Origin: Macrostomum lignano
Lineage: Eukaryota
DNA: 64,000 nt
Assembly: GCA_002269645.1 (NCBI GenBank)
Contig: NIVC01000276.1
Coordinates: forward strand, 237,427-301,426
Direction: 5' to 3'
The notes under the pieces were generated by a model. The model was given only the letters and a program-made list of their open reading frames with translations, ran no database searches and was not told the DNA's origin. Position numbers and translations under genes: made by a program. Shown one piece after another: positions 26,501 to 64,000 of the stretch. Positions within the stretch are counted from its first letter, which is position 1. Every line of letters starts with the position of its first letter.

Positions 26501-27563
26501 TCTGGTTGGCAAACAACTGAGTCCAGTTGAGTCGCACTTTTTCCAGCCAATTGCGTCCTTACCCTGACCTCGGCTGTTCCTTTGACTTGTATTGGCTCGC
26601 CCGTCCAGGTCCGGAGTCGCAGGCGTGTTGGTGTCAGCGGAGGTCGGCCGAGCTGCTTCCACACCGACTCCGGTACGAGGCTGACGCAGGCACCGGTGTC
26701 CAGCTGCATGGTGAGAGGCTGGTCATTCACCAGCAGACTTACGCTGATCTTCTTGGCCGATGCAGTGACTTGCGAAATCCAGCCAGTTGCTGCTTCCTCC
26801 TCTTCTGTTTGCATGGCGTGTGCTGGTCCGTCCTCTGGCCGTCCGGCTTTCGTTGTACTGGAGGTTTCTTGGCTGAGCGGCAAACTTTCTGCAGGTGTCC
26901 CACTTTCACGCAGTTGTGGCACTTTGCGGTCCTGAAGCGGCAGGCTGCCGACAGGTGGCCTCTGAATCCGCACCTGTAGCACGCCTTCGAGTCCGACGCT
27001 ACCTGCTGGATTGAGCTGACCTTTGAGCTCGATCGATTTCCACTGCTCAGTTTCCGACTGTGCAATCTCCGCCGCGAGGGCAATTTTCTTGGCCGCATCC
27101 AGCGTGAGCTTCTCCTCCATCAGGAGTCGCTGTTGGGTCCGCTGGTCCCGAAGGCCGCAGACGAAACAGTCTCGGAGAGCTTCTTCTCGAAACCCCCCGA
27201 ACTCGCACGAATCGGCCAGGTTCCGCAGCGCAGCCAGAAATTGAGCAGCCGTCTCTCCGTCCCTTTGTGCTCGCTTGTAGAACTTGAACCGTTCAGCGAT
27301 TACTGGCTTCTTCGGTTTGAAGTACTTTTGAAGGTTCTCGGTGAGGGCGCTGTATTGCAGATCTGTTGGCTTGGTCGGACTGCAAAGATCCCGCAGGACT
27401 GCGTAGCATCGTTCGCCAATCAATGTCAGAAACACGGCCTTCTTCTTGTCGTCGCCTTCTATGCCGTTTGCAAGCATGTAAGAGTCCATTCGCTCTTGAT
27501 AGGCGTCCCAATCTTTGCCTTCTTCGTAAGGCTCTAGTTGTCCAACTGAAGCCATCCTCGTCA
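23535..27563 (-). mobile_element. Ty3/Gypsy LTR retrotransposon lacking its 5' LTR; gag-pol (ATG 27555) with several frameshifts
   Basis: Gag (MASVGQLEPY..WDAYQERM; CYRCG..GH, CHNC...GH), PR LDTGACVS, RT EWATPVVPV..VRLCGDYK, RIDDILVSG, RH AADASS, IN RIHVDFAGP, LVSDNGP, TNGLVER; PPT GAGAGGGGAAAAG; 3' LTR 23535-23723; PBS remnant GACGAGGATGG. Confidence 0.9.
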
Positions 27564-29602
27564 TCTGAAGCCATCTGAATTTTGGTGCTACTAACCCAAG
27601 CCTATGGTACAAGACACCGCCAACCCAAAAATTTGAATCAGGGACGGTGCTAGGACAGAGTCCACCCAGCAGACAAGTCCTCGGGAGTGCGCCAAAAACA
27701 GAATTGGAAAATCGAAAAATGTTGGGTATACTACTTAAAGCCATCCAAGAGCGGGGAAACCCAGAAGTCTTGGAAAAAGGCCTAACTATTGGAGCGAGTC
27801 TGGAAGGCTTTTATCCGAGGGCGAGTCTCCTATTAGGCAGGATATCGCGACTACCTATAAGGCTGCAAACCACAAGGACGTCACCTATCCAGCTCTATAT
27901 TGGAGGCCAGGCCAAGGGGTCGGGAAGGGGCACAAGGACCAAGAGGATCTTAGATTTACTCACTCACAACAGTGTCAAACTGTAACCGATGAACGAATAA
28001 GCATTGAGTAAATGACTATTTTTAGATTGTTCATGGTTCGTGCTACTTGCTTTATTCACCCTAACAGTAGGGTCATGGCGTTTTTATTTGTCCAGATAGT
28101 TTTCACGCGAATGAGCTTTCTGTGTGATATTCTGTGCGCACACCCGCCCCTGCAAATGTCTTCCATTATTTTACACTTTGTTTTTGCTTTTATGTGACGA
28201 TATTTTCAAAGCAAGTGCTGGCTATGAAAATATAAATATATGACTTAATTTTTCTCGATATCCTCAAATGGAATGAAGGATCATTTATTTTTTGGAGCTT
28301 GAGATGAATAGGACCATTGGAAATAAAAATGGCGTCCGTAGCGACCTCACTAGCTAGAAAAAGTTTGGGTCAGTTCGAATCTATTCTCATTAAAGATGCA
28401 TTAGCTGACTAAGTTACACATCATCCATTATTTTTCTCCGAGGCCAATTCATTACTTGACTCTGGGCGTTCTCCCCAAAGAAGCAAGGACTGCACGAAAT
28501 TGCTGTTAGAATCCTAATATTCTGCGGTTCTCCTACCAGCTCTGCCTCCCAATCTGATCTCGCTCTCGTCTCTCCCAGGGCTTTCACGCCACAGTGCAGG
28601 CGATCCTAACTGATCCAAGGCCGATTAGATTAGCTTTATTCTAGCAACGCTCTCCCGATTTTTACAGCCATTCATTTTCTGCTGCTAGAATCGGCGTCGA
28701 TTTCCTGCTCCAATTCCTATTAGTAAGCGTAGGCCATGTTTGAATGCATGGTGCAGACCGTGAGTGCTTGTTCAAAGTGTAAGGATACGTACGCTGTGCA
28801 TGTGGGTTAGGCAATTGCTTTCCATTTCGATCGGTGACAATTTATTAGGTATTCTACACGAACATCAATATACAGACTAGAAAGTTAGAAGCTTACTTAC
28901 CACGAAGCTTATGTCCAAATGCGATTTGTTAGAATGGGGGCTGAGGATCTTTATGTTGAACGTGGGGAGCTACCCAATGCTACCCGGGCTAAAATAAACG
29001 TTCTCTCTGCATTGCTGAGAGGCTACGGAACCAGTGGGATGCAGAACCCTCATTGGATAGTGGCTGGCTGTCCATCCTACCCGAGCCCTGCAGTTGGCTT
29101 CCCAGAGAGATCTGTCTCGATTTCAACCAAAACTGCCGTACGGTTCAGCATAAATGAAAAAAAAATCAGAGCTGTATTTAGAAAATATTTGTACAATTTA
29201 CAGTTAATAATGTTGTATTTTAAGCTCTCATCTAACTGCAAGACTCAAATACTTAAGCAGAGGAGGATAAATTGTACAGTTTGAATAAAATGCAGCTGAA
29301 TGCTGGGAGTTTCAGAACCTGGTTCGAATCATAAAATAATAAAGTTGTAATGAACTTTGGAGCTCTCAGATCTGGGAACTGGAGAGGACTGTGCTAGCAT
29401 AAAGGTAGTACTACTTCATCAGATAATAAACAGCCTTGATTATCTCTACCTTAAAAATCTGAATCAGATAAGCCTACTAACATTATTTTCATCGTCAACA
29501 GTTCCTAGTGATCCCAACAGAGATTTGTTAATCTCGATTCGGTGCTAGCAGCTTCTCTCCGTCCAGTTTCTGAATCCGCAGCTCCAACGATGCGGCTCAG
29601 GA

Positions 29603-46457: not shown

Positions 46458-49400
46458 GTTATCGATGAGCGAAAGATCCGAGGAGCAGCAGGCTGCGAAA
46501 GCCGCTTTTCCGTCAGCATTGATGAACAGTGTGCTCGGGGAGTCCACGTGAGTGCTAAGTCTTTGTTTCATTGTTGATAACTATGCAATATTGCAATGAT
46601 TAGATTAAAGATGATTATAGATTAGAGAAAATCATTTCTTCAAGAAGATTTTAAATTGTGAGCTGAGATTTAAATGAGGAGAGCTAAGATTTAAATGGAG
46701 AGCTGAGATTTAAATGGAGAGCTGAGATTTCAATGGAGAGCTGAGATTTAAATGGGGGAGAGCTGAGATTTAAATGGAGAGCTGAGATTTAAATGGAGAG
46801 CTGAGATTTCAATGGAGAGCTGAGATTTAAATAGGGGAGAGCTGAGATTTAAATGGAGAGCTGAGATTTAAATGGAGAGCTGAGATTTAAATGGAGAGCT
46901 GAGATTTCAATGGAGAGCTGAGATTTCAATGGAGAGCTGAGATTTAAGTGGAGAGCTGAGATTTAAATGGAGAGCTGAGATTTCAATGGAGAGCTGAGAT
47001 TTCAATGGAATGCTGAGATTTAAATGGGGGAGAGCTGAGATTTAAAAGGGGGGAGAGCTGAGATTTAAATGGGGGAGAGCTGAGATTTAAAAGGGGGGAG
47101 AGCTGAGATTTAAATGGGGGAGAGCTGAGATTTAAATGGTGGAGAGCTGAGATTTAAATGGGGGAGAGCTGAGATTTAAATGGGGGAGAGCTGAGATTTA
47201 AATGGGGGAGAGCTGAGATTTTAATGGGGGAGAGCTGAGATTTAAATGGGGAAGGCTGAGATTTAAAGAAAGAGTGCTCATATTTAAATTGGGACTGCTT
47301 AGGTTTAAATAGGGAGTGCTCAGATTTAAATAAGGAGTGCTCAGATTTAAATAGAGAGTGCTCAGATTTAAATAAGGAGTGCTCAGATTTAAATAGGGAG
47401 TGCTCAGATTTAAATAGGGAGTGCTCAGATTTAAATAGGGAGTGCTCAGATTTAAATAGGGAGTGCTCAGATTTAAATAAGGAGTGCTCAGATTTAAATA
47501 GGGAGTGCTCAGATTTAAATAAGGAGTGCTCAGATTTAAATAGGGAGTGCTCAGATTTAAATAAGGAGTGCTCAGATTTAAATAGGGAGTGCTCAGATTT
47601 AAATAGGGAGTGCTCAGATTTAAATAGGGAGTGCTCAGATTTAAATAGGGAGTGCTCAGATTTAAATAGGGAGTGCTCAGATTTAAATAGGGAGTGCTCA
47701 GATTTAAATAAGGAGTGCTCAGATTTTAATAGGGAGTGCTCAGATTTAAATAAGGAGTGCTCAGATTTAAATAGGGAGTGCTCAGATTTAAATAAGGAGT
47801 GCTCAGATTTAAATAGGGAGTGCTCAGATTTAAATAGGGAGTGCTCAGATTTAAATAGGGAGTGCTCAGATTTAAATAGGGAGTGCTCAGATTTAAATAG
47901 GGAGTGCTCAGATTTAAATAGGGAGTGCTCAGATTTAAATAGGGAGTGCTCAGATTTAAATAGGGAGTGCTCAGATTTAAATAGGGAGTGCTCAGATTTA
48001 AATAGAGAGTGCTCAGATTTAAATAGAGAGTGCTCAGATTTAAATAGGGAGTGCTCAGATTTAAATAGGGAGTGCTCAGATTTAAATAGGGAGTGCTCAG
48101 ATTTAAATAGAGAGTGCTCAGATTTAAATAGAGAGTGCTCAGATTTAAATAGGGAGTGCTTAGATTTAAATAGGGAGTGCTCAGATTTAAATAGAGAGTG
48201 CTCAGATTTAAATAGAGAGTGCTCAGATTTAAATAGAGAGTGCTCAGATTTAAATAAGGAGTGCTCAGATTTAAATAGAGAGTGCTCAGATTTAAATAGA
48301 GAGTGCTCAGATTTAAATAAGGAGTGCTCAGATTTAAATAGGGAGTGCTCAGATTTAAATAGGGAGTGCTCAGATTTAAATAGAGAGTGCTCAGATTTAA
48401 ATAGGGAGTGCTCAGATTTAAATAGAGAGTGCTCAGATTTAAATAGGGAGTGCTCAGATTTAAATAGAGAGTGCTCAGATTTAAATAGGGAGTGCTCAGA
48501 TTTAAATAAGGAGTGCTCAGATTTAAATAGGGAGTGCTCAGATTTAAATAGGGAGTGCTCAGATTTAAATAGGGAGTGCTCAGATTTAAATAGGGAGTGC
48601 TCAGATTTAAATAGAGAGTGCTCAGATTTAAATAGGGAGTGCTCAGATTTAAATAGAGAGTGCTCAGATTTAAATAAGGAGTGCTCAGATTTAAATAGAG
48701 AGTGCTCAGATTTAAATAAGGAGTGCTCAGATTTAAATAGGGAGTGCTCAGATTTAAATAGGGAGTGCTCAGATTTAAATAGGGAGTGCTCAGATTTAAA
48801 TAGGGAGTGCTCAGATTTAAATAAGGAGTGCTCAGATTTAAATAGGGAGTGCTCAGATTTAAATAAGGAGTGCTCAGATTTAAATAGGGAGTGCTCAGAT
48901 TTAAATAGGGAGTGCTCAGATTTAAATAGGGAGTGCTCAGATTTAAATAGGGAGTGCTCAGATTTAAATAGAGAGTGCTCAGATTTAAATAGAGAGTGCT
49001 CAGATTTAAATAGGGAGTGCTTAGATTTAAATAGGGAGTGCTCAGATTTAAATAGAGAGTGCTCAGATTTAAATAGAGAGTGCTCAGATTTAAATAGAGA
49101 GTGCTCAGATTTAAATAAGGAGTGCTCAGATTTAAATAGAGAGTGCTCAGATTTAAATAGAGAGTGCTCAGATTTAAATAAGGAGTGCTCAGATTTAAAT
49201 AGGGAGTGCTCAGATTTAAATAGGGAGTGCTCAGATTTAAATAGAGAGTGCTCAGATTTAAATAGGGAGTGCTCAGATTTAAATAGAGAGTGCTCAGATT
49301 TAAATAGGGAGTGCTCAGATTTAAATAGAGAGTGCTCAGATTTAAATAGGGAGTGCTCAGATTTAAATAAGGAGTGCTCAGATTTAAATAGGGAGTGCTC

Positions 49401-52400
49401 AGATTTAAATAAGGAGTGCTCAGATTTAAATAGGGAGTGCTCAGATTTAAATAGGGAGTGCTCAGATTTAAATAGAGAGTGCTCAGATTTAAATAGGGAG
49501 TGCTCAGATTTAAATAGAGAGTGCTCAGATTTAAATAAGGAGTGCTCAGATTTAAATAGAGAGTGCTCAGATTTAAATAGAGAGTGCTCAGATTTAAATA
49601 GGGAGTGCTCAGATTTAAATAGGGAGTGCTTAGATTTAAATAGGGAGTGCTCAGATTTAAATAGGGAGTGCTCAGATTTAAATAGAGAGTGCTCAGATTT
49701 AAATAAGGAGTGCTCAGATTTAAATAAGGAGTGCTCAGATTTAAATAAGGAGTGCTCAGATTTAAATACGGAGTGCTCAGATTTAAATAGGGAGTGCTCA
49801 GATTTAAATAGGGAGTGCTCAGATTTAAATAGGGAGTGCTCAGATTTAAATAGGGAGTGCTCAGATTTAAATAGGGAGTGCTCAGATTTAAATAGAGAGT
49901 GCTCAGATTTAAATAGAGAGTGCTCAGATTTAAATAGGGAGTGCTCAGATTTAAATAAGGAGTGCTTTAGAGATGTTCCGAAAGTGCATTTTCTGCCGAA
50001 ATCAAAATCGAACTCGAAATCTGCCACTTTCCAAACTCAAAATCATAATTTTCTGACATCGAAATTCTGAAAAAAATTATTACGACCAACATTCACTTTT
50101 AAATGTCGTCTACTGCATGCTACATGTAAATGGTAACTATGTGAAGAAATTCCAACAATAATTACTGCCCTGACTCAGGTTCTGTGCAGGGCATGTTCTC
50201 TTGCTCTCTTGCGGCTTCTTTACATGTATTTATCTGTACCCGTATCACTGAATGGCAATTCGTGTAGACCGTGTCTTTGCATCGAATTCCAGTTTAGAAA
50301 AAATAGAACGATGTGACAGTTTAATTATTAAAATAGATACTCTATGATTTTTTTTCTCCATCAATAAATCAGAGCGATGGTGGCTGACGACATACCGCAG
50401 GCTCTGATGAACTTGCTGAGCTGCTGGATGCAGGTGTGTCTGACCCTGGCCAGCCGCGACCGGCGCCTCATCTGTGGGTTCCGCAAAGTGCTGGATCGGC
50501 TCGGAAAAGAGTGAGTTTCCCAGATCCCGATCCCAGATCCCGATCCCAGATCCCGATCCCAGATCCCGATCCCAGATCCCGATCCCAGATCCCGATCCCA
50601 GATCCCGATCCCAGATCCCGATCCCAGATCCCGATCCCAGATCCCGATCCCAGATCCCGATCCCAGATCCCGATCCCAGATCCCGATCCCAGATCCCGAT
50701 CCCAGATCCCGATCCCAGATCCCGATCCCAGATCCCGATCCCAGATCCCGATCCCAGATCCCGATCCCAGATCCCGATCCCAGATCCCGATCCCAGATCC
50801 CGATCCCAGATCCCGATCCCAGATCCCGATCCCAGATCCCGATCCCAGATCCCGATCCCAGATCCCGATCCCAGATCCCGATCCCAGATCCCGATCCCAG
50901 ATCCCGATCCCAGATCCCGATCCCAGATCCCGATCCCAGATCCCGATCCCAGATCCCGATCCCAGATCCCGATCCCAGATCCCGATCCCAGATCCCGATC
51001 CCAGATCCCGATCCCAGATCCCGATCCCAGATCCCGATCCCAGATCCCGATCCCAGATCCCGATCCCAGATCCCGATCCCAGATCCCGATCCCAGATCCC
51101 GATCCCAGATCCCGATCCCAGATCCCGATCCCAGATCCCGATCCCAGATCCCGATCCCAGATCCCGATCCCAGATCCCGATCCCAGATCCCGATCCCAGA
51201 TCCCGATCCCAGATCCCGATCCCAGATCCCGATCCCAGATCCCGATCCCAGATCCCGATCCCAGATCCCGATCCCAGATCCCGATCCCAGATCCCGATCC
51301 CAGATCCCGATCCCAGATCCCGATCCCAGATCCCGATCCCAGATCCCGATCCCAGATCCCGATCCCAGATCCCGATCCCAGATCCCGATCCCAGATCCCG
51401 ATCCCAGATCCCGATCCCAGATCCCGATCCCAGATCCCGATCCCAGATCCCGATCCCAGATCCCGATCCCAGATCCCGATCCCAGATCCCGATCCCAGAG
51501 CGTAAAACATTCTCACCTGCTTTTCGCTGTTCACTTTCAGCAATATTTTATTTTGCATTCTACCGGAAAGTCTCTGGTCGGACAAAACCCACACGGGTAT
51601 GCTTGCCCTGACCCTGGCTTCCTGTCACCAAAGCGGAGTTCGAATGATCAAGGTGAGCGAGACTGGGGCTCACTTGTACTTCATATGAGGGTCGTCCACT
51701 CTAAGTCTAGAATGGACACCTAATTAACCCAGCCAAGGACACCCAAACAATAGCAGCCAAGGACACCCAATCAAAGCAGCCATAGACGCCCAATCAAAGC
51801 AGCTAAGGACACCCAATAAAAGCAACCAGGGACATTTAAAAAAAGCAGTCAAAACACCCAATCAAAGCAGCCATAGACACCCAATCAAAGCAGCCAAGGA
51901 CACCCAATCAAAGCAGTCATAGACACCCAATCAAAGCAGCCATAGACACCCCATCAAAGCAGTCATAGATGAGTAGAAGGCATGAGGGGGCTTTTGGGAC
52001 AAAATTTTTCACATCCTCCATAATCCCATTAAATCCATCCATATTATCCCTGACAGAATCAGAAAAAAAGGGGGGTCGCACTCGCTCACAAAACATCCTC
52101 CATAATCCACCTAAATCCATCCATATTATCCCTGACAGAATCAGAAAAAAAGGGGGGTCGCACTCGCTCACAAAACGTCCTCCATAATCCACCTAAATCC
52201 ATCCATATTATCCCTGACAGAATCATGAAAAAGGGGAGGGGCCGCACTTGCTCCGAAAACTTCGAACATAATCCTATTAAATCCATCCATATTATCCCTG
52301 ACAGAATCAGAGCAGGTGTCCACTGATACCCGTTATGCTCACTGACACAGACATCATCCACTGACATCCACCCATAGCATCTTCGAAACAATCAGAAAAT

Positions 52401-55400
52401 AATCTGCATTCTTATCCCCACATTCAATTCGCAACATGAAACCAGATCCCTAAAACTTTAAATCATCAGCGCAGGGTCCTTACCCTTTGAAAAAAAGTAA
52501 TAAATTCTCAATAAAAATGTTTCCAGTTGTCTCTCCAGGTTCTTATTACAAAGCGCACGAGCCTAATTACAAGAGTAAGTACCGATGCAAACTTGAATGC
52601 AGCGAATACATGAGAAAATATTGGCCCGACGTTCAAATCAATGTCCCTAATATTAATCTAGCTCTCCAAAGACATTGGTTTCATAAGTATGGAGTAACCT
52701 ATGTAAAAGATTATGACAGCTACTATAACTTTGCAGAAATCATTAGGCAATTGTGATTTCTCACATTCTCTCAATGATTAACGTCAATACAAACTCTTCC
52801 CCATTAAAATCAACGCCCATCCCATCTTCAGTCTCAAACTGTAGCACAATCTCGTGAATCTCCTTATTACTCAATACAACTCTTTTCACTGGATTTGGTT
52901 TCTCTACCACCATCTGTCCTCCAGCTACAGAGTTGGAGATGTTGTACAAAATATTCGTTCGCTTTCCCTTAAATACCCAATCAAGACTGAGATTAGTTCT
53001 GATTAGAATATTCAAACCCTTTACAATGTCTGCTATATTGGGTGCTAAGAACAAACCGCGTACACTTTCCCGGGCCATGATAACAGCCCCCGTCGCTTGA
53101 GTGACAGTCCGCGCTGTGGATTCTGCCTTATAAACTTTCTTCACGAATCCCAATTCCCTATACCAAGTGTCATCTTTAAACTCAACCTCCGCATCTTTGT
53201 GAACTTGCATGACCACTCTCATTACAGTGAGATCATAGGTTAGTTTAACAGGGAACAGTTTCTTCTCTGGCTTACTCATATCAGGTGTCTCAAAATGGCC
53301 TCTTTTAGTAAAGACGTTTTCTAGAAAGTAATTGTAGGTATCCACACTTTGCGTGCTCACAGGGAATACCACAGGTTCTGCTGCTGCACCTTTCCATTTG
53401 TAATAAAACTTATTATTTGCTGCCGTCACATTGGGAACGTTTGACCAACCAGTGAAGTCGTTAAGATAGACATGGTAATTAGCACCTGGATCCAGGCGAA
53501 TCGCCTGCTCTAATTTTTGAATAAATATCCCGTTTGAGTCATTAATTCGCCCAGTTATTGTAATAGGAATGCTCTCCTTGGAGTGCGAAATAATATTATT
53601 TAGTCTTTCAGCAATCGCTTCCATTTTTTTCACATAAAAAAATATTTAAACTTTACTGGATGAATTGTTGATCATGTTAAGCTTCACCTTCCTCTCAAAT
53701 GCATAGATAATGTACAAGTCCACAGGTGTTGCGACAGTCCTCTCAATGTTAGTCACGATATTCACAGGGCTGTTATCAGTAGGCATTTGTCTGGCAGACA
53801 CATCAGCGCCAAACATTGGATATAGAGTTCCATATTGAAGAGCAGTGATAGCAATTCCATTGTTCTCTTTCACAGCCAAGTCGACCAACTCGCTATAAAA
53901 TTTGCTAATCTTGTTCTGACTGAAATCTCCATTTTGTGGCAGTGCAGGGTAAAGATTATCACTGATTTCATGCTGAATGGACCGCACGTCACCATGCATG
54001 TAGCGTATAATGCTATTTGGGTTTCTCATATTAATAATGATATACCTTGGATTGCTGCATGATCCCTCTTTAATGCAGATGTTTGTTCTAGTTTTGTTTC
54101 GCTCATCTCGACACATGTAGGCTGTGTATGCAACATCAATGTCCTTCTCTATTGCCTTAAGATAGTCTGCTTTTAGTGCAGTCTTTGGCTCAATGACTTC
54201 CAAATACAGCTCGATTCCGGTTAGCTTCACCTCCATCCTTGTGTGGTCCGCCCCAGTCCACAACACTCTACTGCGATCATCTCTAGTCATCTTAAAAGTG
54301 TAGCTAAAGTTACTAGTCAGTCGATTAAATGTACTACAAAATCCACTCATGAATCTCAGTGGTACAAATACATCAACAGACCGATACAGCGGGTTTTTAG
54401 CAGCATCATCAGCACCTTGCAATGCATAGTTGTATCTCTTCTTCCTCTTTTTATAGCCACTGTCATTGGTGTCTCCTTCTTTTTCATCTGCGATAAAACC
54501 CGCACCACTTCCCAACTGAATAAAATCAGGATTCTCGATCAAACAATGAGCGTCATAGACAATTCCAAAGTTGGCGATTCGCTCCAACTCAGTGCTCCCA
54601 TTCGATACACTAAACTCCTTGAACATGTACGCCCAAAAGTTACTGATCAGAGCCACATCCGCATCATGCTTGTCAACGTTAGCACGAGCCGCATCCGCAC
54701 CACCCTTTGTCTTGAATTGAAATGTCATATGGAAGCCGCTCTTAAGACTGTGCACACTAACCAAAGACGAACATCCATTGTATGTAAATGTCAGTGTTTG
54801 GCCAGGACCAAGATTAGTTTCATTCTGATTTTCCTGACTGGGAACTCTTACCTGAGTCACTTTGATTGTGCTATCATCACTCAAAATAGGCTTGTTAATT
54901 TTGTAGAAAACTGGTGTCAGTGGGTCGTTCATTTTTTAACTAAAAATAAAATAAAATAAGAAATGAAGCGAAAAAGTACACAGCAGATATCTGAATTGGA
55001 GAAGCTAGCACAAGCAGAGAAACGAGTTACCGGGCTAATAAATAAGGAGCAACAATCCTACAATGAGTTTGTCCAAGCAGCCACCGAATTTCACAAACCC
55101 GGATACACAGAAGCGAAGAAAAACCTCGACACTGTGAAGGAAGCAGTTGATGATATTCAAGAGAGCCACTTGCAAAACACATTGGGTAAAATCCCATCTT
55201 CACCAGGACAACCACAGGCTCAGGAACCAGGACAACCGGTGCAGATGAAAGTGACGGATAACTTTTTTGGCCCCGTAGTGGATGATGGAAAATATATTTT
55301 TGGAATTAGCGCCTGGCGAAAAAATATTACCGGGGAACCGGCGGATTACAACATTGAAGTGACAAAGGAAAACATTTCAATCAATAAAGGCGCAAAAACT

Positions 55401-58400
55401 AAAAGAATCCAGTTCACTCAAACTTTACTTGATTACATGACTAAAAATCTAGAGAATACGTCTAAAAAGCAGCTCAAAAATTACAAAGATCTTGTTACCT
55501 TTGCTCTCGATAGGGATATAGATATGCTCAAGAACAACGGTGTTTTGAAAATTTTACATGAAAACGGGATTGTCTTGAACAGATTTAAAAAAAATACAAA
55601 TACTTTAAACAATGGTTTGGTTTGCCGGATCAGGAAGAGGTCATAAGACAACAACCACAACAACAACAGCAACAACAGCAACCGCCACAACAGCAGCAAC
55701 ATTTCACAGAAGAACAAGTACTCAGGCAACTGGAAAATGCAGATCCGACTCAAGTAGCTAAATATAATAATGATCACCCAACAGACTGGCAACACTTAGA
55801 ACAACACTCTCCAGATCGAATGAACAGAATCAAGCAAAGAGTTTTCACACCTCAACAAAGACAGGCGCCACATGACAGTTCCATCTCTGAAAGTGAGCAG
55901 TCTTTTGGATCACCTCCCCAGCAGCCACAAGCCCAACCAACTCCACAACCCCAAGACCAACCACCCAAATCTGGAAAAGGAATAGCTGAAATCTACAAGC
56001 GAGTAGCGGTTCTTCTAGGAGCGGCAAAGACCGGAATGAAAGACGAGAATAGAAAAGAATTTGTCAACATCCTGGACAAAATGCTTGAGAGAAAATACAT
56101 CGATAAGAGGGCGAGAGAGCTTCTGCTTTCGCGGTTCAACAAAAAATAATTTATTTCAAGTAAAAATGCCACTTATTTTCGAAAAAGACATTGACAAATA
56201 CTATGACAAAGAGGAACTTAATCTTATTAAACGCGGATCTGGACTTTTCCCTGCAGGCCACTATCCAAGAAAAGAGCGCTCCGGGAATGGCCTTGCCGAT
56301 TTGATCGCTCAGGGGGCTAAGATTTTTAAGGTCATTGGAGAGAACAAAGAGAACATCAAGAACGTTGCCGAAGCGGCTGGCAGTGTAGCCACAGCAGCCA
56401 AAAAGATAAAGGATACTGTAACACCTAAACAAGAGATTCAACCTCCACTGGCCCCGCTGGCTCCGCTGGCCCCAAATCCAGACAGTGTGGACCCTGCAGT
56501 CTATGAGAAGATGAGAGCTAGCATTAAAAAAGGAAGTGGTTTCAAATTTGACTAAAGGGTACTTTCCGAGGGTACAAGAAATGTAAAGGTACAAGACTAG
56601 TCCCAAAATGACATACCTAAGTCCCAAAATGACACATCTAAGTCCCAAAATAACACATCTAAGTCCCAAAATGACACATCTAAGTCCCAAAATGACACAT
56701 CTAAGTCCCAAAATGACACATCTTCTAAATGTTTTATTATTAAAAAAAAATTTTTTTTCATCATAGAAAAAATGGACTTTTCAAAGGACTTCAATCCTCA
56801 CTGGACGCGTAATCAGATTAAGTTTTCTCATCATGAGTCAATCCCGAGTCACTTCAGATGCATTGTTGTTGGTTCATCAGGTTCAGGTAAAACATTCAGA
56901 GTCTTTAACATGCTTCTTAGACCTGGCTTCATCGACTATGACACTCTGCACATCTACTCTCCCACACTGTATCAAGATGAGTATAGAATGCTGATTTCTG
57001 GATTGCAAAACAAACTGAACAAAGAGGACATTATTCAATGTTTTAATAACCAAATGAGCCTTCCCAGTAACCCAGAAATTGTAGCTGCCGAATATGCAAA
57101 GCACCTCAAAGACAATGAAAAATGGCAGAACATTAAAGTGTTCTCCTATGGAGATCCGCAGGTGGATCCAAAGACCAAACTTCTACCCCATCCAGATGAG
57201 CTAGAAAAAGGGAGAAAGCATTTGATCGTCTTTGATGATTGTATGACAGGCCCACAGAAGCAGATAGAAAACTATTTTACAAGAGGGCGACATAACAATT
57301 GTAATGTAATTTACATTGCACAGAACTGGTTCGAGCTCCCGAACAAAACAATTTGCGGGAACTGCAATCTGATTCTCCTGTTTCCAACCATTCCACAGGA
57401 CAGGTTAAAAAGATTTTACAATGAGTTCATTGCGCCTGCCTATTTCATAAATCCAACAAAAAACTCAAACAGAAAGATTTCACAGGAGGAATTCGTTAAT
57501 CTTTGCTATGACAAGTGGAATCAGCCTTACCAGTTTGAGATTATCAGCAAAGAAAAAAGAACTGTAATTTAAAATTTGCTATTAAAAGATGTCTATTAAT
57601 TTTGCAGGTGAATCCATTTCTGGCAACAGCGCTCTTACATCAGCTCAAATATCCATCCTTGACAGGCGATATATCAACAGCGACGAAGAGATCCCAGAGA
57701 TCAAACTGAATAAAAACAGACTGAAAGCCCTACTAGAGCGCTCCATGCACCAGCTACAGATAAACATGGAAGATCTCAGGCTTAAAGTAGCTAGGCAGAA
57801 GTTTGAAAGTGATGAGCTTTTTGTGCCGTTGTCAAACGCAACTAATGAACTAAGGTCAGAAATAACTTCGATAGTCTCGCTAATCAACGGCTTGAGATCA
57901 TCAGTTAATCTTCTGGGAAATTCCACTGATAGACGGATGCGTATTCTTGAAGGAGGAGTTTTCACAAACACAGCTAAAGTAAATAATTTAGAAGAGTTCA
58001 TGAACCAGTCAACAGTGTTGCATGATAGAATTAAAGAAAACGTCGCAACCAACACAGGTAAAGTGAGGAATTTAGAAGAGTTCATGACTCAGTCAACATC
58101 GTTGCATGATAGAATTAAAGAAAGACTTGATGCAATTAAAGTCTATTTAGATTTAATTTTTACCGAATGGCAGAAATCGTTGAGAAGAATCAGTCGTCTT
58201 GAGGGAGTACACAATCTTCCTGATATTGATACTGTTGAAGAGGCACCACAGACCACAAGGGAAATAAGTGATCCAACCGACTTGACCACTGACCACGAAT
58301 TTCGTGAGCCAACCAGTTTGACCACTAACCCAAAATTTCGTGAGCCAACCGGTTTGTTTGAGATCAAGTGTAGAATGGAGCGCATAGACAAATAAATAGG

Positions 58401-61400
58401 TAGATTCGAAGAGACCTGCTGGCGCCAACTGCAGACGAAACAATCAAACGTAAAACAAATCTAACCACCACCAAAGAGTTGTCAATTTTGGGACTTAGAT
58501 GTGTCATTTTGGGACTTAGATGTGTCATTTTGGGACTTAGATGTGTTATTTTGGGACTTAGATGTGTCATTTTGGGACTTAGGTATGTCATTTTGGGACT
58601 AGTCTTGTACCTTTACATTTCTTGTACCCTCGGAAAGTACCCTTTAGTCAAATTTGAAACCACTTCCTTTTTTAATGCTAGCTCTCATCTTCTCATAGAC
58701 TGCAGGGTCCACAATGTCTGGATTTGGGGCCAGCGGAGCCAGCGGGGCCAGTGGAGGTTGAATCTCTTGTTTAGGTGTTACAGTATCCTTTATCTTTTTG
58801 GCTGCTGTGGCTACACTGCCAGCCGCTTCGGCAACGTTCTTGATGTTCTCTTTGTTCTCTCCAATGACCTTAAAAATCTTAGCCCCTGAGCGATCAAATC
58901 GGCAAGGCCATTCCCGGAGCGCTCTTTTCTTGGATAGTGGCCTGCAGGGAAAAGTCCAGATCCGCGTTTAATAAGATTAAGTTCCTCTTTGTCATAGTAT
59001 TTGTCAATGTCTTTTTCGAAAATAAGTGGCATTTTTACTTGAAATAAGTTATTTTTTGTTGAACCGCGAAAGCAGAAGCTCTCTCGCCCTCTTATCGATG
59101 TATTTTCTCTCAAGCATTTTGTCCAGGATGTTGACAAATTCTTTTCTATTCTCGTCTTTCATTCCGGTCTTTGCCGCTCCTAGAAGAACCGCTACTCGCT
59201 TGTAGATTTCAGCTATTCCTTTTCCAGATTTGGGTGGTTGGTCTTGGGGTTGTGGAGTTGGTTGGGCTTGTGGCTGCTGGGGAGGTGATCCAAAAGACTG
59301 CTCACTTTCAGAGATGGAACTGTCATGTGGCGCCTGTCTTTGTTGAGGTGTGAAAACTCTTTGCTTGATTCTGTTCATTCGATCTGGAGAGTGTTGTTCT
59401 AAGTGTTGCCAGTCTGTTGGGTGATCATTATTATATTTAGCTACTTGAGTCGGATCTGCATTTTCCAGTTGCCTGAGTACTTGTTCTTCTGTGAAATGTT
59501 GCTGCTGTTGTGGCGGTTGCTGTTGTTGCTGTTGTTGTTGTGGTTGTTGTCTTATGACCTCTTCCTGATCCGGCAAACCAAACCATTGTTTAAAGTATTT
59601 GTATTTTTTTTAAATCTGTTCAAGACAATCCCGTTTTCATGTAAAATTTTCAAAACACCGTTGTTCTTGAGCATATCTATATCCCTATCGAGAGCAAAGG
59701 TAACAAGATCTTTGTAATTTTTGAGCTGCTTTTTAGACGTATTCTCTAGATTTTTAGTCATGTAATCAAGTAAAGTTTGAGTGAACTGGATTCTTTTAGT
59801 TTTTGCGCCTTTATTGATTGAAATGTTTTCCTTTGTCACTTCAATGTTGTAATCCGCCGGTTCCCGGTAATATTTTTTCGCCAGGCGCTAATTCCAAAAA
59901 TATATTTTCCATCATCCACTACGGGGCCAAAAAAGTTATCCGTCACTTTCATCTGCACCGGTTGTCCTGGTTCCTGAGCCTGTGGTTGTCCTGGTGAAGA
60001 TGGGATTTTACCCAATGTGTTTTGCAAGTGGCTCTCTTGAATATCATCAACTGCTTCCTTCACAGTGTCGAGGTTTTTCTTCGCTTCTGTGTATCCGGGT
60101 TTGTGAAATTCGGTGGCTGCTTGGACAAACTCATTGTAGGATTGTTGCTCCTTATTTATTAGCCCGGTAACTCGTTTCTCTGCTTGTGCTAGCTTCTCCA
60201 ATTCAGATATCTGCTGTGTACTTTTTCGCTTCATTTCTTATTTTATTTTATTTTTAGTTAAAAAATGAACGACCCACTGACACCAGTTTTCTACAAAATT
60301 AACAAGCCTATTTTGAGTGATGATAGCACAATCAAAGTGACTCAGGTAAGAGTTCCCAGTCAGGAAAATCAGAATGAAACTAATCTTGGTCCTGGCCAAA
60401 CACTGACATTTACATACAATGGATGTTCGTCTTTGGTTAGTGTGCACAGTCTTAAGAGCGGCTTCCATATGACATTTCAATTCAAGACAAAGGGTGGTGC
60501 GGATGCGGCTCGTGCTAACGTTGACAAGCATGATGCGGATGTGGCTCTGATCAGTAACTTTTGGGCGTACATGTTCAAGGAGTTTAGTGTATCGAATGGG
60601 AGCACTGAGTTGGAGCGAATCGCCAACTTTGGAATTGTCTATGACGCTCATTGTTTGATCGAGAATCCTGATTTTATTCAGTTGGGAAGTGGTGCGGGTT
60701 TTATCGCAGATGAAAAAGAAGGAGACACCAATGACAGTGGCTATAAAAAGAGGAAGAAGAGATACAACTATGCATTGCAAGGTGCTGATGATGCTGCTAA
60801 AAACCCGCTGTATCGGTCTGTTGATGTATTTGTACCACTGAGATTCATGAGTGGATTTTGTAGTACATTTAATCGACTGACTAGTAACTTTAGCTACACT
60901 TTTAAGATGACTAGAGATGATCGCAGTAGAGTGTTGTGGACTGGGGCGGACCACACAAGGATGGAGGTGAAGCTAACCGGAATCGAGCTGTATTTGGAAG
61001 TCATTGAGCCAAAGACTGCACTAAAAGCAGACTATCTTAAGGCAATAGAGAAGGACATTGATGTTGCATACACAGCCTACATGTGTCTAGATGAGCGAAA
61101 CGAAACTAGAACAAACATCTGCATTAAAGAGGGATCATGCAGCAATCCAAGGTATATCATTATTAATATGAGAAACCCAAATAGCATTATACGCTACATG
61201 CATGGTGACGTGCGGTCCATTCAGCATGAAATCAGTGATAATCTTTACCCTGCACTGCCACAAAATGGAGATTTCAGTCAGAACAAGATTAGCAAATTTT
61301 ATAGCGAGTTGGTCGACTTGGCTGTGAAAGAGAACAATGGAATTGCTATCACTGCTCTTCAATATGGAACTCTATATCCAATGTTTGGCGCTGATGTGTC

Positions 61401-64000
61401 TGCCAGACAAATGCCTACTGATAACAGCCCTGTGAATATCGTGACTAACATTGAGAGGACTGTCGCAACACCTGTGGACTTGTACATTATCTATGCATTT
61501 GAGAGGAAGGTGAAGCTTAACATGATCAACAATTCATCCAGTAAAGTTTAAATATTTTTTTATGTGAAAAAAATGGAAGCGATTGCTGAAAGACTAAATA
61601 ATATTATTTCGCACTCCAAGGAGAGCATTCCTATTACAATAACTGGGCGAATTAATGACTCAAACGGATATTTATTCAAAAATTAGAGCAGGCGATTCGC
61701 CTGGATCCAGGTGCTAATTACCATGTCTATCTTAACGACTTCACTGGTTGGTCAAACGTTCCCAATGTGACGGCAGCAAATAATAAGTTTTATTACAAAT
61801 GGAAAGGTGCAGCAGCAGAACCTGTGGTATTCCCTGTGAGCACGCAAAGTGTGGATACCTACAATTACTTTCTAGAAAACGTCTTTACTAAAAGAGGCCA
61901 TTTTGAGACACCTGATATGAGTAAGCCAGAGAAGAAACTGTTCCCTGTTAAACTAACCTATGATCTCACTGTAATGAGAGTGGTCATGCAAGTTCACAAA
62001 GATGCGGAGGTTGAGTTTAAAGATGACACTTGGTATAGGGAATTGGGATTCGTGAAGAAAGTTTATAAGGCAGAATCCACAGCGCGGACTGTCACTCAAG
62101 CGACGGGGGCTGCTTATCATGGCCCGGGAAAGTGTACGCGGTTTGTTCTTAGCACCCAATATAGCAGACATTGTAAAGGGTTTGAATATTCTAATCAGAA
62201 CTAATCTCAGTCTTGATTGGGTATTTAAGGAAAGCGAACGAATATTTTGTACAACATCTCCAACTCTGTAGCTGGAGGACAGATGGTGGTAGAGAAACCA
62301 AATCCAGTGAAAAGAGTTGTATTGAGTAATAAGGAGATTCACGAGATTGTGCTACAGTTTGAGACTGAAGATGGGATGGGCGTTGATTTTAATGGGGAAG
62401 AGTTTGTATTGACGTTAATCATTGAGAGAATGTGAGAAATCACAATTGCCTAATGATTTCTGCAAAGTTATAGTAGCTGTCATAATCTTTTACATAGGTT
62501 ACTCCATACTTATGAAACCAATGTCTTTGGAGAGCTAGATTAATATTAGGGACATTGATTTGAACGTCGGGCCAATATTTTCTCATGTATTCGCTGCATT
62601 CAAGTTTGCATCGGTACTTACTCTTGTAATTAGGCTCGTGCGCTTTGTAATAAGAACCTGGAGAGACAACTGGAAACATTTTTATTGAGAATTTATTACT
62701 TTTTTTCAAAGGGTAAGGACCCTGCGCTGATGATTTAAAGTTTTAGGGATCTGGTTTCATGTTGCGAATTGAATGTGGGGATAAGAATGCAGATTATTTT
62801 CTGATTGTTTCGAAGATGCTATGGGTGGATGTCAGTGGATGATGTCTGTGTCAGTGAGCATAACGGGTATCAGTGGACACCTGCTCTGATTCTGTCAGGA
62901 TAATATGGATGGATTTAATAGGATTATGTTCGAAGTTTTCGGAGCAAGTGGCCCCTCCCCTTTTTCATGATTCTGTCAGGGATAATATGGATGGATTTAG
63001 GTGGATTATGGAGGACGTTTTGTGAGCGAGTGCGACCCCCTTTTTTCTGATTCTGTCAGGGATAATATGGATGGATTTAGGTGGATTATGGAGGATGTTT
63101 TGTGAGCGAGTGCGACCCCCCTTTTTTTCTGATTCTGTCAGGGATAATATGGATGGATTTAATGGGATTATGGAGGATGTGAAAAATTTTGTCCCAAAAG
63201 CCCCCTCATGCCTTCTACTTAGATGCCCAAACAAAGCAGCTAAGGACACCCAAACAAAACAGCCATAGACACCCAATCAAAGCAGCCAAGGACCCTTATC
63301 AAAGCAGCCAAGGACACCTTATCAAAGCAGCCAAGGACACCCAATCAAAGCAGCTAAGGACACCCAATCAAAGCAGCCAAGGACACCCAATCAAATCAAA
63401 GCAGCCAAGGACACCCAATCAAAGCAGCCAAGGACACCCAATCAAAGCAGCCATAGACGCCCAATCAAAGCAGCCATAGACACCCAAACAAAGCAGCTAA
63501 GGACACCCAATCAAAGCAGCAGGGACATTTAAAAAAAGCAGTCAAAACACCCAATCAAAGCAGCCATAGACACCCAATCAAAGCAGCAAGGACACCCAAT
63601 CAAAGCAGCCATAGACACCCAATCAATGCAGCCAAGGACACCCAATCAAAGCAGCCAAGGACACCCAATCAAAGCAGCCATAGACACCCAATCAATGCAG
63701 CCAAGGACACCCAATCAAAGCAGTCATAGACACCCTATCAAAGCAGCCATAGACACCCTATCAAAGCAGTCATAGATGCCCAAACAAAGCAACCCCAAGG
63801 ATATTCAACCCGACCGCCGCCCCGCCAGGTCGACCAGCACCAGTTGGTGCAAAAGACCATCGCAGCCATCGGCCAGCCCCGAACTGCAGCGCCGCAAAGC
63901 TACGAGTGCCTGGCCGTCCTGGACGCCGGACACCCCCAGCCGGAGTGCGACTCCGAGCTGGTGAAATTCTACGACAGCGAGATCACGGATGCGACTTCAA
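46458..64000 (+). CDS. Uncharacterised spliced host gene; exons 46458-46547 (possible ATG 46465), 50373-50510, 51541-51652, 63829->64000
   Basis: Three successive GT-AG junctions keep frame (phases 2, 2, 0): ..LGEST-AMVADDIPQALMNLLSCWMQVC..LGKD-NILFCILPESLW..VRMIK-VDQHQLVQKTIAAIG..; the last acceptor is the least certain. Confidence 0.6.
46665..47265. repeat. 20-24-bp minisatellite (GAGAGCTGAGATTTAAATGG) related to the adjacent 21-bp array
   Basis: Direct; shares the AGATTTAAAT core. Confidence 0.95.
47270..49965. repeat. 21-bp satellite (GAGTGCTCAGATTTAAATAGG), ~128 units
   Basis: Direct. Confidence 0.97.
50519..51498. repeat. Homogeneous 13-bp repeat (CCCAGATCCCGAT), ~75 units, starting 8 nt after a splice donor
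   Basis: Direct; no variant unit noticed. Confidence 0.97.
51730..51971 (+). repeat. ~23-bp intronic minisatellite (AAAGCAGCCAAGGACACCCAATC), left part; ends in TSD TAGATG (51966-51971)
   Basis: Same orientation as the continuation at 63220-63795. Confidence 0.93.
52016..52310. repeat. Subterminal ~82-bp direct repeats (~3.5 units), mirrored at ~62880-63175
   Basis: Unit CTCCATAATCCACCTAAATCCATCCATATTATCCCTGACAGAATCAG.. recurs at 52016, 52098, 52180. Confidence 0.85.
52487..52756 (+). CDS. Small element ORF (79-89 aa, Tyr/Lys-rich), unknown function
   Basis: Intact in both arms; convergent with the minor capsid gene. Confidence 0.45.
   Translation: MKKSNKFSIKMFPVVSPGSYYKAHEPNYKSKYRCKLECSEYMRKYWPDVQINVPNINLALQRHWFHKYGVTYVKDYDSYYNFAEIIRQL
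52761..53624 (-). CDS. Minor capsid (penton-like, single jelly-roll) protein, ~287 aa
   Basis: Beta-rich; C-terminal EIVLQFETEDGMGVDFNGEEFVLTLII typical of Polinton/PLV pentons; directly downstream of the major capsid gene. Confidence 0.75.
   Translation of the reverse strand: MEAIAERLNNIISHSKESIPITITGRINDSNGIFIQKLEQAIRLDPGANYHVYLNDFTGWSNVPNVTAANNKFYYKWKGAAAEPVVFPVSTQSVDTYNYFLENVFTKRGHFETPDMSKPEKKLFPVKLTYDLTVMRVVMQVHKDAEVEFKDDTWYRELGFVKKVYKAESTARTVTQATGAVIMARESVRGLFLAPNIADIVKGLNILIRTNLSLDWVFKGKRTNILYNISNSVAGGQMVVEKPNPVKRVVLSNKEIHEIVLQFETEDGMGVDFNGEEFVLTLIIERM
53646..54932 (-). CDS. Major capsid (double jelly-roll-like) protein, 428 aa
   Basis: Size and motifs (DDSTI, FVPLRFMSGF, IELYLEVIEP, PRYIII, LYP, YPMFGADVS) fit Maverick major capsid proteins; context with penton and ATPase. 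Confidence 0.8.
   Translation of the reverse strand: MNDPLTPVFYKINKPILSDDSTIKVTQVRVPSQENQNETNLGPGQTLTFTYNGCSSLVSVHSLKSGFHMTFQFKTKGGADAARANVDKHDADVALISNFWAYMFKEFSVSNGSTELERIANFGIVYDAHCLIENPDFIQLGSGAGFIADEKEGDTNDSGYKKRKKRYNYALQGADDAAKNPLYRSVDVFVPLRFMSGFCSTFNRLTSNFSYTFKMTRDDRSRVLWTGADHTRMEVKLTGIELYLEVIEPKTALKADYLKAIEKDIDVAYTAYMCRDERNKTRTNICIKEGSCSNPRYIIINMRNPNSIIRYMHGDVRSIQHEISDNLYPALPQNGDFSQNKISKFYSELVDLAVKENNGIAITALQYGTLYPMFGADVSARQMPTDNSPVNIVTNIERTVATPVDLYIIYAFERKVKLNMINNSSSKV
54963..56149 (+). CDS. Element protein split into 54963-55646 and 55622-56149; probably one ~395-aa protein joined by a -1 shift at the A8 run (55587-94)
   Basis: Second ORF has no ATG after its upstream stop; adding one A gives RFKKKYKYFKQWFGLPDQEE..; Gln/Pro-rich middle, helical C-terminus. 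Confidence 0.55.
56166..56555 (+). CDS. Small core/membrane-lytic-like virion protein, 129 aa
   Basis: GxG-hydrophobic motifs (KRGSG-L, RSGNG-L, KKGSG-F) and an amphipathic segment LADLIAQGAKIFKVIG; AAAAATG start context. Confidence 0.55.
   Translation: MPLIFEKDIDKYYDKEELNLIKRGSGLFPAGHYPRKERSGNGLADLIAQGAKIFKVIGENKENIKNVAEAAGSVATAAKKIKDTVTPKQEIQPPLAPLAPLAPNPDSVDPAVYEKMRASIKKGSGFKFD
56599..56723 (+). repeat. Six 21-bp direct repeats (AAGTCCCAAAATGACACATCT) at the inner end of the left arm; mirrored at 58485-58600
   Basis: Direct; the right copy has five units plus a partial sixth. Confidence 0.95.
56772..57572 (+). CDS. A32/FtsK-like DNA packaging ATPase, 266 aa (single copy, in the loop)
   Basis: Walker A VVGSSGSGKT, Walker B LIVFDDCM, YFTRGRHNNCNVIYIAQ (A32-type RGRH and Q motifs). 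Confidence 0.92.
   Translation: MDFSKDFNPHWTRNQIKFSHHESIPSHFRCIVVGSSGSGKTFRVFNMLLRPGFIDYDTLHIYSPTLYQDEYRMLISGLQNKLNKEDIIQCFNNQMSLPSNPEIVAAEYAKHLKDNEKWQNIKVFSYGDPQVDPKTKLLPHPDELEKGRKHLIVFDDCMTGPQKQIENYFTRGRHNNCNVIYIAQNWFELPNKTICGNCNLILLFPTIPQDRLKRFYNEFIAPAYFINPTKNSNRKISQEEFVNLCYDKWNQPYQFEIISKEKRTVI
57589..58395 (+). CDS. Coiled-coil protein with 28-aa and 12-aa internal repeats, 268 aa (single copy)
   Basis: Heptad-rich; 84-bp repeat (57964, 58048) and 36-bp repeats (~58272-58355). Confidence 0.65.
   Translation: MSINFAGESISGNSALTSAQISILDRRYINSDEEIPEIKLNKNRLKALLERSMHQLQINMEDLRLKVARQKFESDELFVPLSNATNELRSEITSIVSLINGLRSSVNLLGNSTDRRMRILEGGVFTNTAKVNNLEEFMNQSTVLHDRIKENVATNTGKVRNLEEFMTQSTSLHDRIKERLDAIKVYLDLIFTEWQKSLRRISRLEGVHNLPDIDTVEEAPQTTREISDPTDLTTDHEFREPTSLTTNPKFREPTGLFEIKCRMERIDK
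58644..59032 (-). pseudogene. Right-arm copy of the 129-aa ORF with a 1-nt deletion in a G run (~58883-86)
   Basis: Reverse complement of 56166-56555; 389 vs 390 nt. Confidence 0.8.
59049..60234 (-). pseudogene. Right-arm copy of the 54963-56149 ORF pair with an extra 1-nt deletion (~59864)
   Basis: Reverse complement; GGG vs GGGG at the NITG codons. Confidence 0.8.
60265..61551 (+). CDS. Major capsid protein, second intact copy (428 aa; R>L and K>E versus the left copy)
   Basis: Reverse complement of 53646-54932; differences at 61088 and 61102. Confidence 0.8.
   Translation: MNDPLTPVFYKINKPILSDDSTIKVTQVRVPSQENQNETNLGPGQTLTFTYNGCSSLVSVHSLKSGFHMTFQFKTKGGADAARANVDKHDADVALISNFWAYMFKEFSVSNGSTELERIANFGIVYDAHCLIENPDFIQLGSGAGFIADEKEGDTNDSGYKKRKKRYNYALQGADDAAKNPLYRSVDVFVPLRFMSGFCSTFNRLTSNFSYTFKMTRDDRSRVLWTGADHTRMEVKLTGIELYLEVIEPKTALKADYLKAIEKDIDVAYTAYMCLDERNETRTNICIKEGSCSNPRYIIINMRNPNSIIRYMHGDVRSIQHEISDNLYPALPQNGDFSQNKISKFYSELVDLAVKENNGIAITALQYGTLYPMFGADVSARQMPTDNSPVNIVTNIERTVATPVDLYIIYAFERKVKLNMINNSSSKV
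61573..62435 (+). pseudogene. Minor capsid, second copy, disrupted by a 1-nt insertion (~62113) and a 1-nt deletion (~62230)
   Basis: Reverse complement of 52761-53624. Confidence 0.75.
62440..62709 (-). CDS. Second copy of the small Tyr/Lys-rich ORF
   Basis: Identical translation to 52487-52756. Confidence 0.45.
   Translation of the reverse strand: MKKSNKFSIKMFPVVSPGSYYKAHEPNYKSKYRCKLECSEYMRKYWPDVQINVPNINLALQRHWFHKYGVTYVKDYDSYYNFAEIIRQL
63220..63795 (+). repeat. ~23-bp intronic minisatellite, right part, beginning with TSD TAGATG
   Basis: Same unit and orientation as 51730-51971. Confidence 0.93.

What the first reader, a model, noticed from the sequence alone, without database searches (positions are those of the whole stretch)
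56599..58600. Copy-back junction maps into an internal 21-bp repeat array with microhomology
The left arm has six 21-bp units and runs on into the ATPase gene. The right arm starts abruptly after ORF 57589-58395 at ..GAGTTGTCA-ATTTTGGGACTTAG, part-way through unit 6. TGTCA is shared by the unique sequence and the inverted unit (one extra A). This is the footprint expected if a strand-displacing protein-primed polymerase switched to the other strand at 58480-58485 and copied back to the starting terminus, as in copy-back defective genomes.
Basis: partly seen in the sequence, partly recalled or inferred. Interest (0 to 1): 0.75.

Follow-up and report, generated by a model that had tools for sequence, protein, structure and literature searches.

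The report
Mirror-image defective Maverick transposon copy
A virus-like jumping gene in an animal genome lost its right half and replaced it with a mirror copy of its left half through a 5-letter copying slip; four other copies in the same genome folded back the same way at other places, so the slip is real and recurrent, but the repeat array is not its fixed trigger.

Summary
Window 51972-63219 is an 11.2-kb Maverick/Polinton with AGTAG…CTACT ends, a 6-bp target duplication, 4.75-kb arms (99.6% identical) and a 1.77-kb spacer. Full-length relatives of about 16 kb in the same genome carry the 21-bp array and follow the window to 58489, then continue into polymerase, integrase and PLA2 genes (25 of 28 loci read). 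The true microhomology is ATTTT at 58485-58489; the 'extra A' is parental. The junction occurs three times, all one insertion on two haplotypes, so it has not spread. Four other fold-backs were found (three left-end, one right-end): none breaks in the array and one lands about 45 bp past it. A template switch is well supported; the agent is open. Older outer repeats in sister cases and a nested retroelement at one junction favour host repair of an integrated copy (0.47) slightly over polymerase copy-back before integration (0.40). The scan noted similar palindromic Mavericks in two other genomes (unchecked).

The parts
51972..63219 (.). Whole non-autonomous fold-back Maverick/Polinton, 11,248 bp, ends AGTAG...CTACT
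51966..51971 (+). Left copy of the 6-bp target-site duplication TAGATG
63220..63225 (+). Right copy of the target-site duplication TAGATG
51972..56714 (+). Left arm (original left end of the parent)
   Evidence: collinear with full-length copies
58485..63219 (-). Right arm: inverted copy of the left arm, replacing the parent's polymerase/integrase/PLA2 half
   Evidence: 99.64% over 4755 columns; missing genes identified
56715..58484 (+). Unique spacer, 1770 bp; flipped relative to the host flanks on the other haplotype
58485..58489 (+). Junction: exact microhomology ATTTT, shared by the parent's continuation and inverted array unit 6 (56710-56714)
58480..58484 (+). Imperfect extension of the microhomology (TGTCA); parental sequence
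56599..56724 (+). 21-bp tandem array, six units, upstream of the ATPase; also present in full-length copies, with varying unit number
58485..58600 (-). Inverted array copy, truncated in unit 6
56772..57572 (+). A32-like packaging ATPase, 266 aa
   Evidence: Pox_A32 E=4.5e-6, above cut-off
57589..58395 (+). 268-aa ORF of unknown family with an 84-bp internal duplication
   Evidence: Atlas best score 0.79
53646..54932 (-). Major capsid protein, 428 aa (double jelly roll)
   Evidence: DJR-like_dom E=6.8e-5, below cut-off
60265..61551 (+). Second copy of the major capsid gene in the right arm
52761..53624 (-). 287-aa ORF, probable minor capsid protein (inferred from size and position); its right-arm copy reads broken in this contig
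   Evidence: Atlas viral clusters at 0.98
54963..56149 (+). Two ORFs (227 and 109 aa) matching one 408-aa ORF of a full-length copy; broken in both arms here
56166..56555 (+). 129-aa ORF of unknown family
52011..52311 (+). 82-bp subterminal repeats of the native terminal inverted repeat (mirror copy 62885-63180)
51714..51969 (+). Host 23-bp satellite that received the insertion (continues at 63226-63791)

Best explanation
This is a single-locus, non-autonomous Maverick made by one replicative template switch that joined parent position 58489 to the inverted 21-bp array through ATTTT, losing about 9 kb of the parent's right half (shown). The array was used because it offers the best match to this particular 3' end, not because it is a programmed break site (inferred). 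Most likely agent (inferred, narrow lead): host break repair of an already integrated full-length copy. After a break near the AT hairpin at 58484-58500, the right end, resected into its terminal repeat, invaded the left terminal repeat and copied 4.7 kb inward. It then let go in the array and annealed to the left stump by microhomology, leaving the termini and target duplication intact. The resulting palindrome is unstable: on one haplotype its spacer is flipped and its last 650 bp match another family haplotype.
For: Parents are collinear to 58489. Five of the six one-edit matches to the 3' end lie in the array. The junction has three hits, all one insertion. Four more fold-backs, each at one locus with its own target duplication: C633, C2140, C1584, C975. 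Three of their junctions carry templated patches or small duplications, and the fourth shares about 1-2 bases. Over five elements the outer 420 bp hold 20 substitutions in 2100 bp against 11 in 20,986 bp inside; in C975 the two outer repeats are different family haplotypes. The C2140 junction lies in a nested tyrosine-recombinase retroelement whose insertion junction is found only there. No near-identical donor of the window's capsid gene among 40 scored of 321 candidates. Gap-filling with microhomology is described for single-copy derivatives of TIR transposons (PMC8277862, passages).
Against: The window's own arms show no substitution in the outer 420 bp, as copy-back to the terminus predicts; only 2 of 10 native repeat pairs are that clean over their first 400 bp. 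The excess of outer differences could also come from arm-to-arm conversion or consensus polishing that works best mid-arm; the one control pair has few events (0 outer, 4 inner). No allele with a full-length element at the same site was found for any case: C975's other allele is empty, and no allelic contig turned up for C2140, C633 or C1584. Donor copies could be missing simply because insertions are polymorphic.
Confidence: 0.47

Rival explanations
1. During extrachromosomal protein-primed strand-displacement replication, the element's polymerase stalled at the parent's T-run/AT hairpin. The 3' end re-primed on the array of the displaced or own strand and copied back to the left terminus. 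An integrase supplied in trans then inserted the palindromic molecule.
For: The window's arms match to the last base. Termini and 6-bp duplication are intact in all five cases, and C975's empty allele shows a clean integrase insertion. Fold-backs occur from both ends. phi29 polymerase makes this product in vitro: over 85% of chimeras are inversions with a deletion, over 70% primed on 2-21 nt (PMC1855051, abstract). Parents encode a B-family polymerase.
Against: Every junction sits at one locus, with no spread as a defective-interfering family. Old outer repeats in C975 and C633 need a second switch inside the terminal repeat. The locus-unique nested retroelement at C2140. No near-identical donor found.
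Confidence: 0.4
2. Two Mavericks nested or adjacent in opposite orientation were fused by a microhomology deletion, and gene conversion then made the arms alike.
For: Nested Maverick-in-Maverick insertions are frequent here, and two such joints lie in the array (C1098).
Against: Such pairs are only 77-97% alike, against 99.2-99.9% for the five fold-backs. One target duplication brackets each whole fold-back, which two separate insertions would not give.
Confidence: 0.08
3. Assembly or amplification artefact (a chimeric fold-back read).
For: Contig C276 ends 781 bp after the element and C3945 ends inside its arm. Listed public contigs do not bridge the junction (cut list, inconclusive).
Against: The same junction is on two haplotypes that differ by about 2% in the flanks and 1% in the spacer. 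The arms end exactly at the element termini, with target duplication and continuous host satellite on both sides.
Confidence: 0.03
4. Native design of an element family with long coding terminal repeats.
For: Native repeat length varies among the copies measured, from about 430 to 900 bp, and in C875 reaches into a gene.
Against: 25 of 28 readable loci continue into the polymerase half. About 250 left-end markers yield only four long-armed left-end loci.
Confidence: 0.02

Closest known systems
Mavericks/Polintons (adintovirus-like endogenous elements)
   Same: AG…CT termini, 6-bp duplication, terminal repeats, A32 ATPase and double-jelly-roll capsid. Parents of about 16 kb have polB, rve integrase and a PLA2 domain. 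Vertebrate intact elements are 12.7-24.6 kb with repeats of 46-1,447 bp (PMC8097293, passages).
   Different: No polymerase or integrase in this copy. Arms of 4.75 kb, over three times the longest repeat in that survey, duplicate the capsid genes. No adenain-type protease was found in the one parent scanned.
Non-autonomous zebrafish Polinton with multi-kb terminal repeats (Kapitonov and Jurka 2006; recalled, paper not held)
   Same: As I recall it, an element of about 11 kb made mostly of two long inverted copies of one end of an autonomous parent.
   Different: Not verified. As recalled it is a multi-copy family, whereas each fold-back here is single-locus.
Copy-back defective viral genomes
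   Same: One terminus copied in reverse complement, giving a panhandle with a unique loop (PMC13506859, passages).
   Different: That definition comes from RNA viruses. Helper-dependent replication and interference are not shown here, and the molecule is integrated.
phi29 strand-displacement chimeras
   Same: Inversion with an intervening deletion, primed on 2-21 nt (PMC1855051, abstract).
   Different: An in vitro reaction; it shows that a related polymerase can make this product, not that it did.
Gap-filling / fork-stalling template-switch derivatives of TIR transposons
   Same: Single-copy derivatives formed after insertion, with short microhomology at breakpoints (PMC8277862, passages).
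   Different: Those capture host DNA; here the filler is the element's own other end, in inverted orientation.

Membership tests
Maverick/Polinton | AG…CT-type termini with terminal inverted repeats | tested here: met
   AGTAG…CTACT; native repeats about 430-900 bp in 10 of 11 copies measured, one interrupted
Maverick/Polinton | 6-bp target-site duplication | tested here: met
   TAGATG at both ends; empty allele with a single copy of the site for C975
Maverick/Polinton | Packaging ATPase and double-jelly-roll major capsid protein | tested here: met
   Pox_A32 above cut-off; DJR-like_dom E=6.8e-5, below cut-off
Maverick/Polinton | Minor capsid protein | tested here: inconclusive
   287-aa ORF beside the capsid gene: no Pfam family, viral Atlas clusters at 0.98; not folded
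Maverick/Polinton (autonomous) | Protein-primed polB and retroviral-like integrase | tested here: not met
   Absent from the window element; present in full-length relatives (DNA_pol_B_2 4.3e-9, rve 1.8e-9). Hence a non-autonomous derivative
Maverick/Polinton (autonomous) | Adenain-type protease | tested here: inconclusive
   No hit among 16 ORFs or ORF pieces of one full-length copy; other copies not scanned
Copy-back defective genome | One terminus duplicated in inverted form around a unique loop, with the other half deleted | tested here: met
Copy-back defective genome | Made by the viral polymerase, copying through to the terminus | tested here: inconclusive
   Window arms clean to the end, but sister cases keep divergent outer repeats
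Copy-back defective genome | Propagates with a helper | tested here: not met
   Junction at one locus only in this assembly; other individuals not resolved
Copy-back defective genome | Interferes with the full-length genome | not testable with these tools
   needs replication data
Array-directed breakpoint hotspot | Independent palindromic copies break in the same array | tested here: not met
   1 of 5 in the array, 1 about 45 bp past it, 3 elsewhere

The most novel reading that the evidence does not exclude
Endogenous Mavericks throw off copy-back defective genomes from either end during free, protein-primed strand-displacement replication, and these integrate with a helper's integrase. The five junctions would then be direct footprints of a replication mode so far inferred from gene content. 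The 21-bp array, which shares the motif GTCCCRRAA only with the two termini, would be a protein-bound pause site.
Probability: 0.33. Interest if true: 0.65.

Novelty: new variant of a known kind. Interest (0 to 1): 0.42.

Why it matters
How Mavericks replicate has been inferred mainly from their genes and termini. Here one genome holds about 250 copies, with parents and five independent fold-back products whose junctions are readable to the base. That makes the question testable: viral polymerase before integration, or host repair after it. Either answer would also explain why native terminal repeats vary in length. The element itself is a defective single-locus copy, so the biological consequence is modest.

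Tried and rejected
Taking the three junction hits as three transpositions: rejected, since the flanks are the same. C3945 overlaps the end of the window's contig and C1652 is the other haplotype. Array as obligatory break site: rejected (1 of 5). Opposite-strand marker pairs in C827, C1098, C3589 and C2787 are nested or adjacent elements or an internal deletion, not fold-backs. C957 is complex and unresolved. Pairs 40-49 kb apart (C33, C273, C716, C819) were not fetched; C33, C716 and C819 carry right-end markers between them, as two whole elements would. Searches for an allele holding a full-length element at a fold-back site gave one empty allele and three blanks. Public contigs of four runs show the parental continuation at 58489 in two runs; no listed piece bridges the junction and 513 pieces were not shown, so this is no verdict. 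No RNA holder was listed. The solved-structure search for the capsid gave nothing. Ten literature searches listed no paper whose title or abstract opening describes junction-level fold-back Mavericks. The 2006 Polinton paper is not held, so precedent there is recalled only; supplements were not read.

Full report
Observation. The window ends in an element at 51972-63219 with AGTAG…CTACT ends and a TAGATG duplication, inserted in a 23-bp host satellite. Its arms align over 4755 columns at 99.64%. The left 21-bp array has 6.0 units and the right 5.7, and the right arm starts at 58485 opposite 56714 in unit 6. The element encodes an A32-like ATPase and a double-jelly-roll capsid protein and a probable minor capsid protein (inferred).

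Parent. A search with the last 335 bp of the spacer gave 53 matches, and 30 loci were fetched. The junction region could be read in 28: 3 carry the junction and 25 run on into a T-run and the next gene; alignments to the window stop at 58489. Whole copies are mostly 14-18 kb. One copy of 16.3 kb, used as coordinate reference, carries rve integrase, a B-family polymerase in pieces and a PLA2 domain in the part that the window lacks. The array is native to the family (476 exact pattern hits).

Junction. Parents read …GTTGTCAATTTTTTT, so the 'extra A' is parental and the exact microhomology is ATTTT at 58485-58489. Five or more shared bases arise at 0.65% of random inverted junctions. The 10-base 3' end has six one-edit matches on the inverted template, five of them in the array. 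In the parent the break lies in the 5' arm of a weak 7-bp AT hairpin (-2.7 kcal/mol); that it caused a stall or break is inference.

One insertion, not a family. The junction pattern has three hits in 764 Mb, and all share the same flanks. C3945 overlaps the end of the window's contig. C1652 is collinear over about 45 kb, 96-98.5% identical in most distal blocks and 91-93% across satellites, and is the other haplotype. On that haplotype the spacer is inverted relative to the flanks and differs at 15 substitutions and one indel beyond a homopolymer difference. Most differences lie in the last 650 bp and match variants of full-length copies, up to the base before the microhomology. The arms differ by only a few bases between haplotypes. 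I read this as later conversion and inversion of an unstable palindrome; two independent switches at the same site cannot be excluded.

Other fold-backs. A left-end marker has 265 hits; allele-split patterns listed 236 of 243. A right-end marker has 213 hits, with 189 of 192 listed. All close opposite-strand pairs of fold-back geometry were fetched. Four are further fold-backs, each with its own 6-bp duplication. C633 has arms of 4854 bp at 99.3%, returns at the ATPase start about 45 bp past the array, and carries a 235-bp patch from the capsid gene start. C2140 has arms of 6228 bp at 99.9% and its junction lies inside a nested RT/tyrosine-recombinase retroelement, with a templated insertion. 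C1584 has arms of 1752 bp at 99.8% and returns in the capsid gene with GATG shared and a 2-base duplication. C975 is a right-end case with arms of 5448 bp at 99.2% and both points in the polymerase gene. So 1 of 5 lands in the array. C633's nearness is suggestive, but with the window left out it is 1 of 3 left-end cases. Fold-backs with arms shorter than the marker distance, or split across contig ends, would be missed.

Mechanism. Shown: a replicative template switch with microhomology, recurring at roughly 2% of copies, from either end. Inferred: the agent. For polymerase copy-back: the window's arms are clean to the last base, the termini remain integrase substrates, and phi29 polymerase gives this product in vitro (PMC1855051, abstract). 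For host repair in place: across five elements the outer 420 bp hold 20 substitutions in 2100 bp against 11 in 20,986 bp inside, 17 of the 20 from C975 and C633 and none from the window. C975's outer repeats are two different family haplotypes, which a single copy-back to the terminus cannot give. The retroelement junction of C2140 exists nowhere else. No near-identical donor was seen for the window, and no junction has spread. Caveats: conversion or polishing could clean mid-arm preferentially, the control is small, a double switch during free replication could also keep an old outer repeat, and donors may be absent by polymorphism (C975's other allele is empty). I put repair in place at 0.47 and copy-back at 0.40.

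Comparison with what is known. The element is a non-autonomous Maverick. It meets the terminus, duplication, ATPase and capsid tests and fails polymerase and integrase, which its parents have. Vertebrate repeats reach 1,447 bp (PMC8097293, passages). It has the shape of a copy-back genome (PMC13506859, passages), but propagation and interference are not shown. Gap-filling derivatives of TIR transposons are the host-side model (PMC8277862, passages). Passages of PMC3014272, PMC11414722, PMC6431247 and PMC12090768 described no such junctions. I recall a long-armed non-autonomous zebrafish Polinton from 2006 but could not see the paper. This scan holds two unchecked notes of palindromic Mavericks in other genomes.

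Verdict. The feature is real and well anchored. New variant of a known kind; interest 0.42.

Noticed in passing
window 51992-52000 and 56599-56724: The motif GTCCCRRAA occurs in a 16.3-kb full-length copy only in the 21-bp array (4 times) and once in each terminus. The 21-bp period is two helical turns, as between adenovirus packaging repeats (PMC12090768, passage). Candidate protein-binding array.
   Followed up: partly
G000:C1652:28604-39932 (L033, L034): Other haplotype of the same insertion: spacer flipped relative to the flanks, last 650 bp of the spacer a different family haplotype, one extra 82-bp unit in one terminal repeat.
   Followed up: yes
G000:C211:356218-356973 and C3895:59174-59929 (L045, L042): A 755-bp internal inversion in an otherwise full-length copy, with about 6 bases of inverted microhomology at its ends.
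   Followed up: partly
G000:C1098:29333 and 34390 (L076): Two Maverick termini are joined directly into the 21-bp array of other copies; Maverick-in-Maverick nesting is also seen in C2787, C2829, C4149, C3589 and C957.
   Followed up: partly
G000:C875:262239-278153 (L052, L053): Full-length copy whose terminal repeat is about 900 bp at 99% and reaches into the probable minor capsid gene; native repeat length varies from about 430 to 900 bp. May be a short version of the same copying process.
   Followed up: partly
G000:C2140:109125-113517 (L050): 4.4-kb retroelement with RT, tyrosine recombinase and split direct repeats (Ngaro/DIRS-like; name recalled) nested between the capsid genes.
   Followed up: partly
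G000:C957:97839-114804 (L093-L095): Complex nested element with partly inverted right halves (99% over 1.15 kb, 94% over 1.9 kb) around a 6.7-kb insert; possibly an older right-end fold-back.
   Followed up: partly
G000:C211, C298, C2087, C3895: A second capsid-gene type only 78-79% identical to the window's sits in otherwise similar elements, so the family is a recombining mosaic.
   Followed up: no
G000:C2715:18000-19500 (L054): The 82-bp subterminal repeat is expanded into a long array at one end.
   Followed up: no
window 12107-16095 and 24154-27744: Two LTR-retrotransposon-type gag/pol regions (RT, RNase H, integrase or protease), lying in stretches that the other haplotype skips.
   Followed up: no
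window 31215-51499: Dense run of unrelated satellites (periods 4-46 bp), including about 158 copies of a 21-bp unit at 46662-49966 that is unrelated to the Maverick array, and a perfect 13-bp array at 50518-51499.
   Followed up: no
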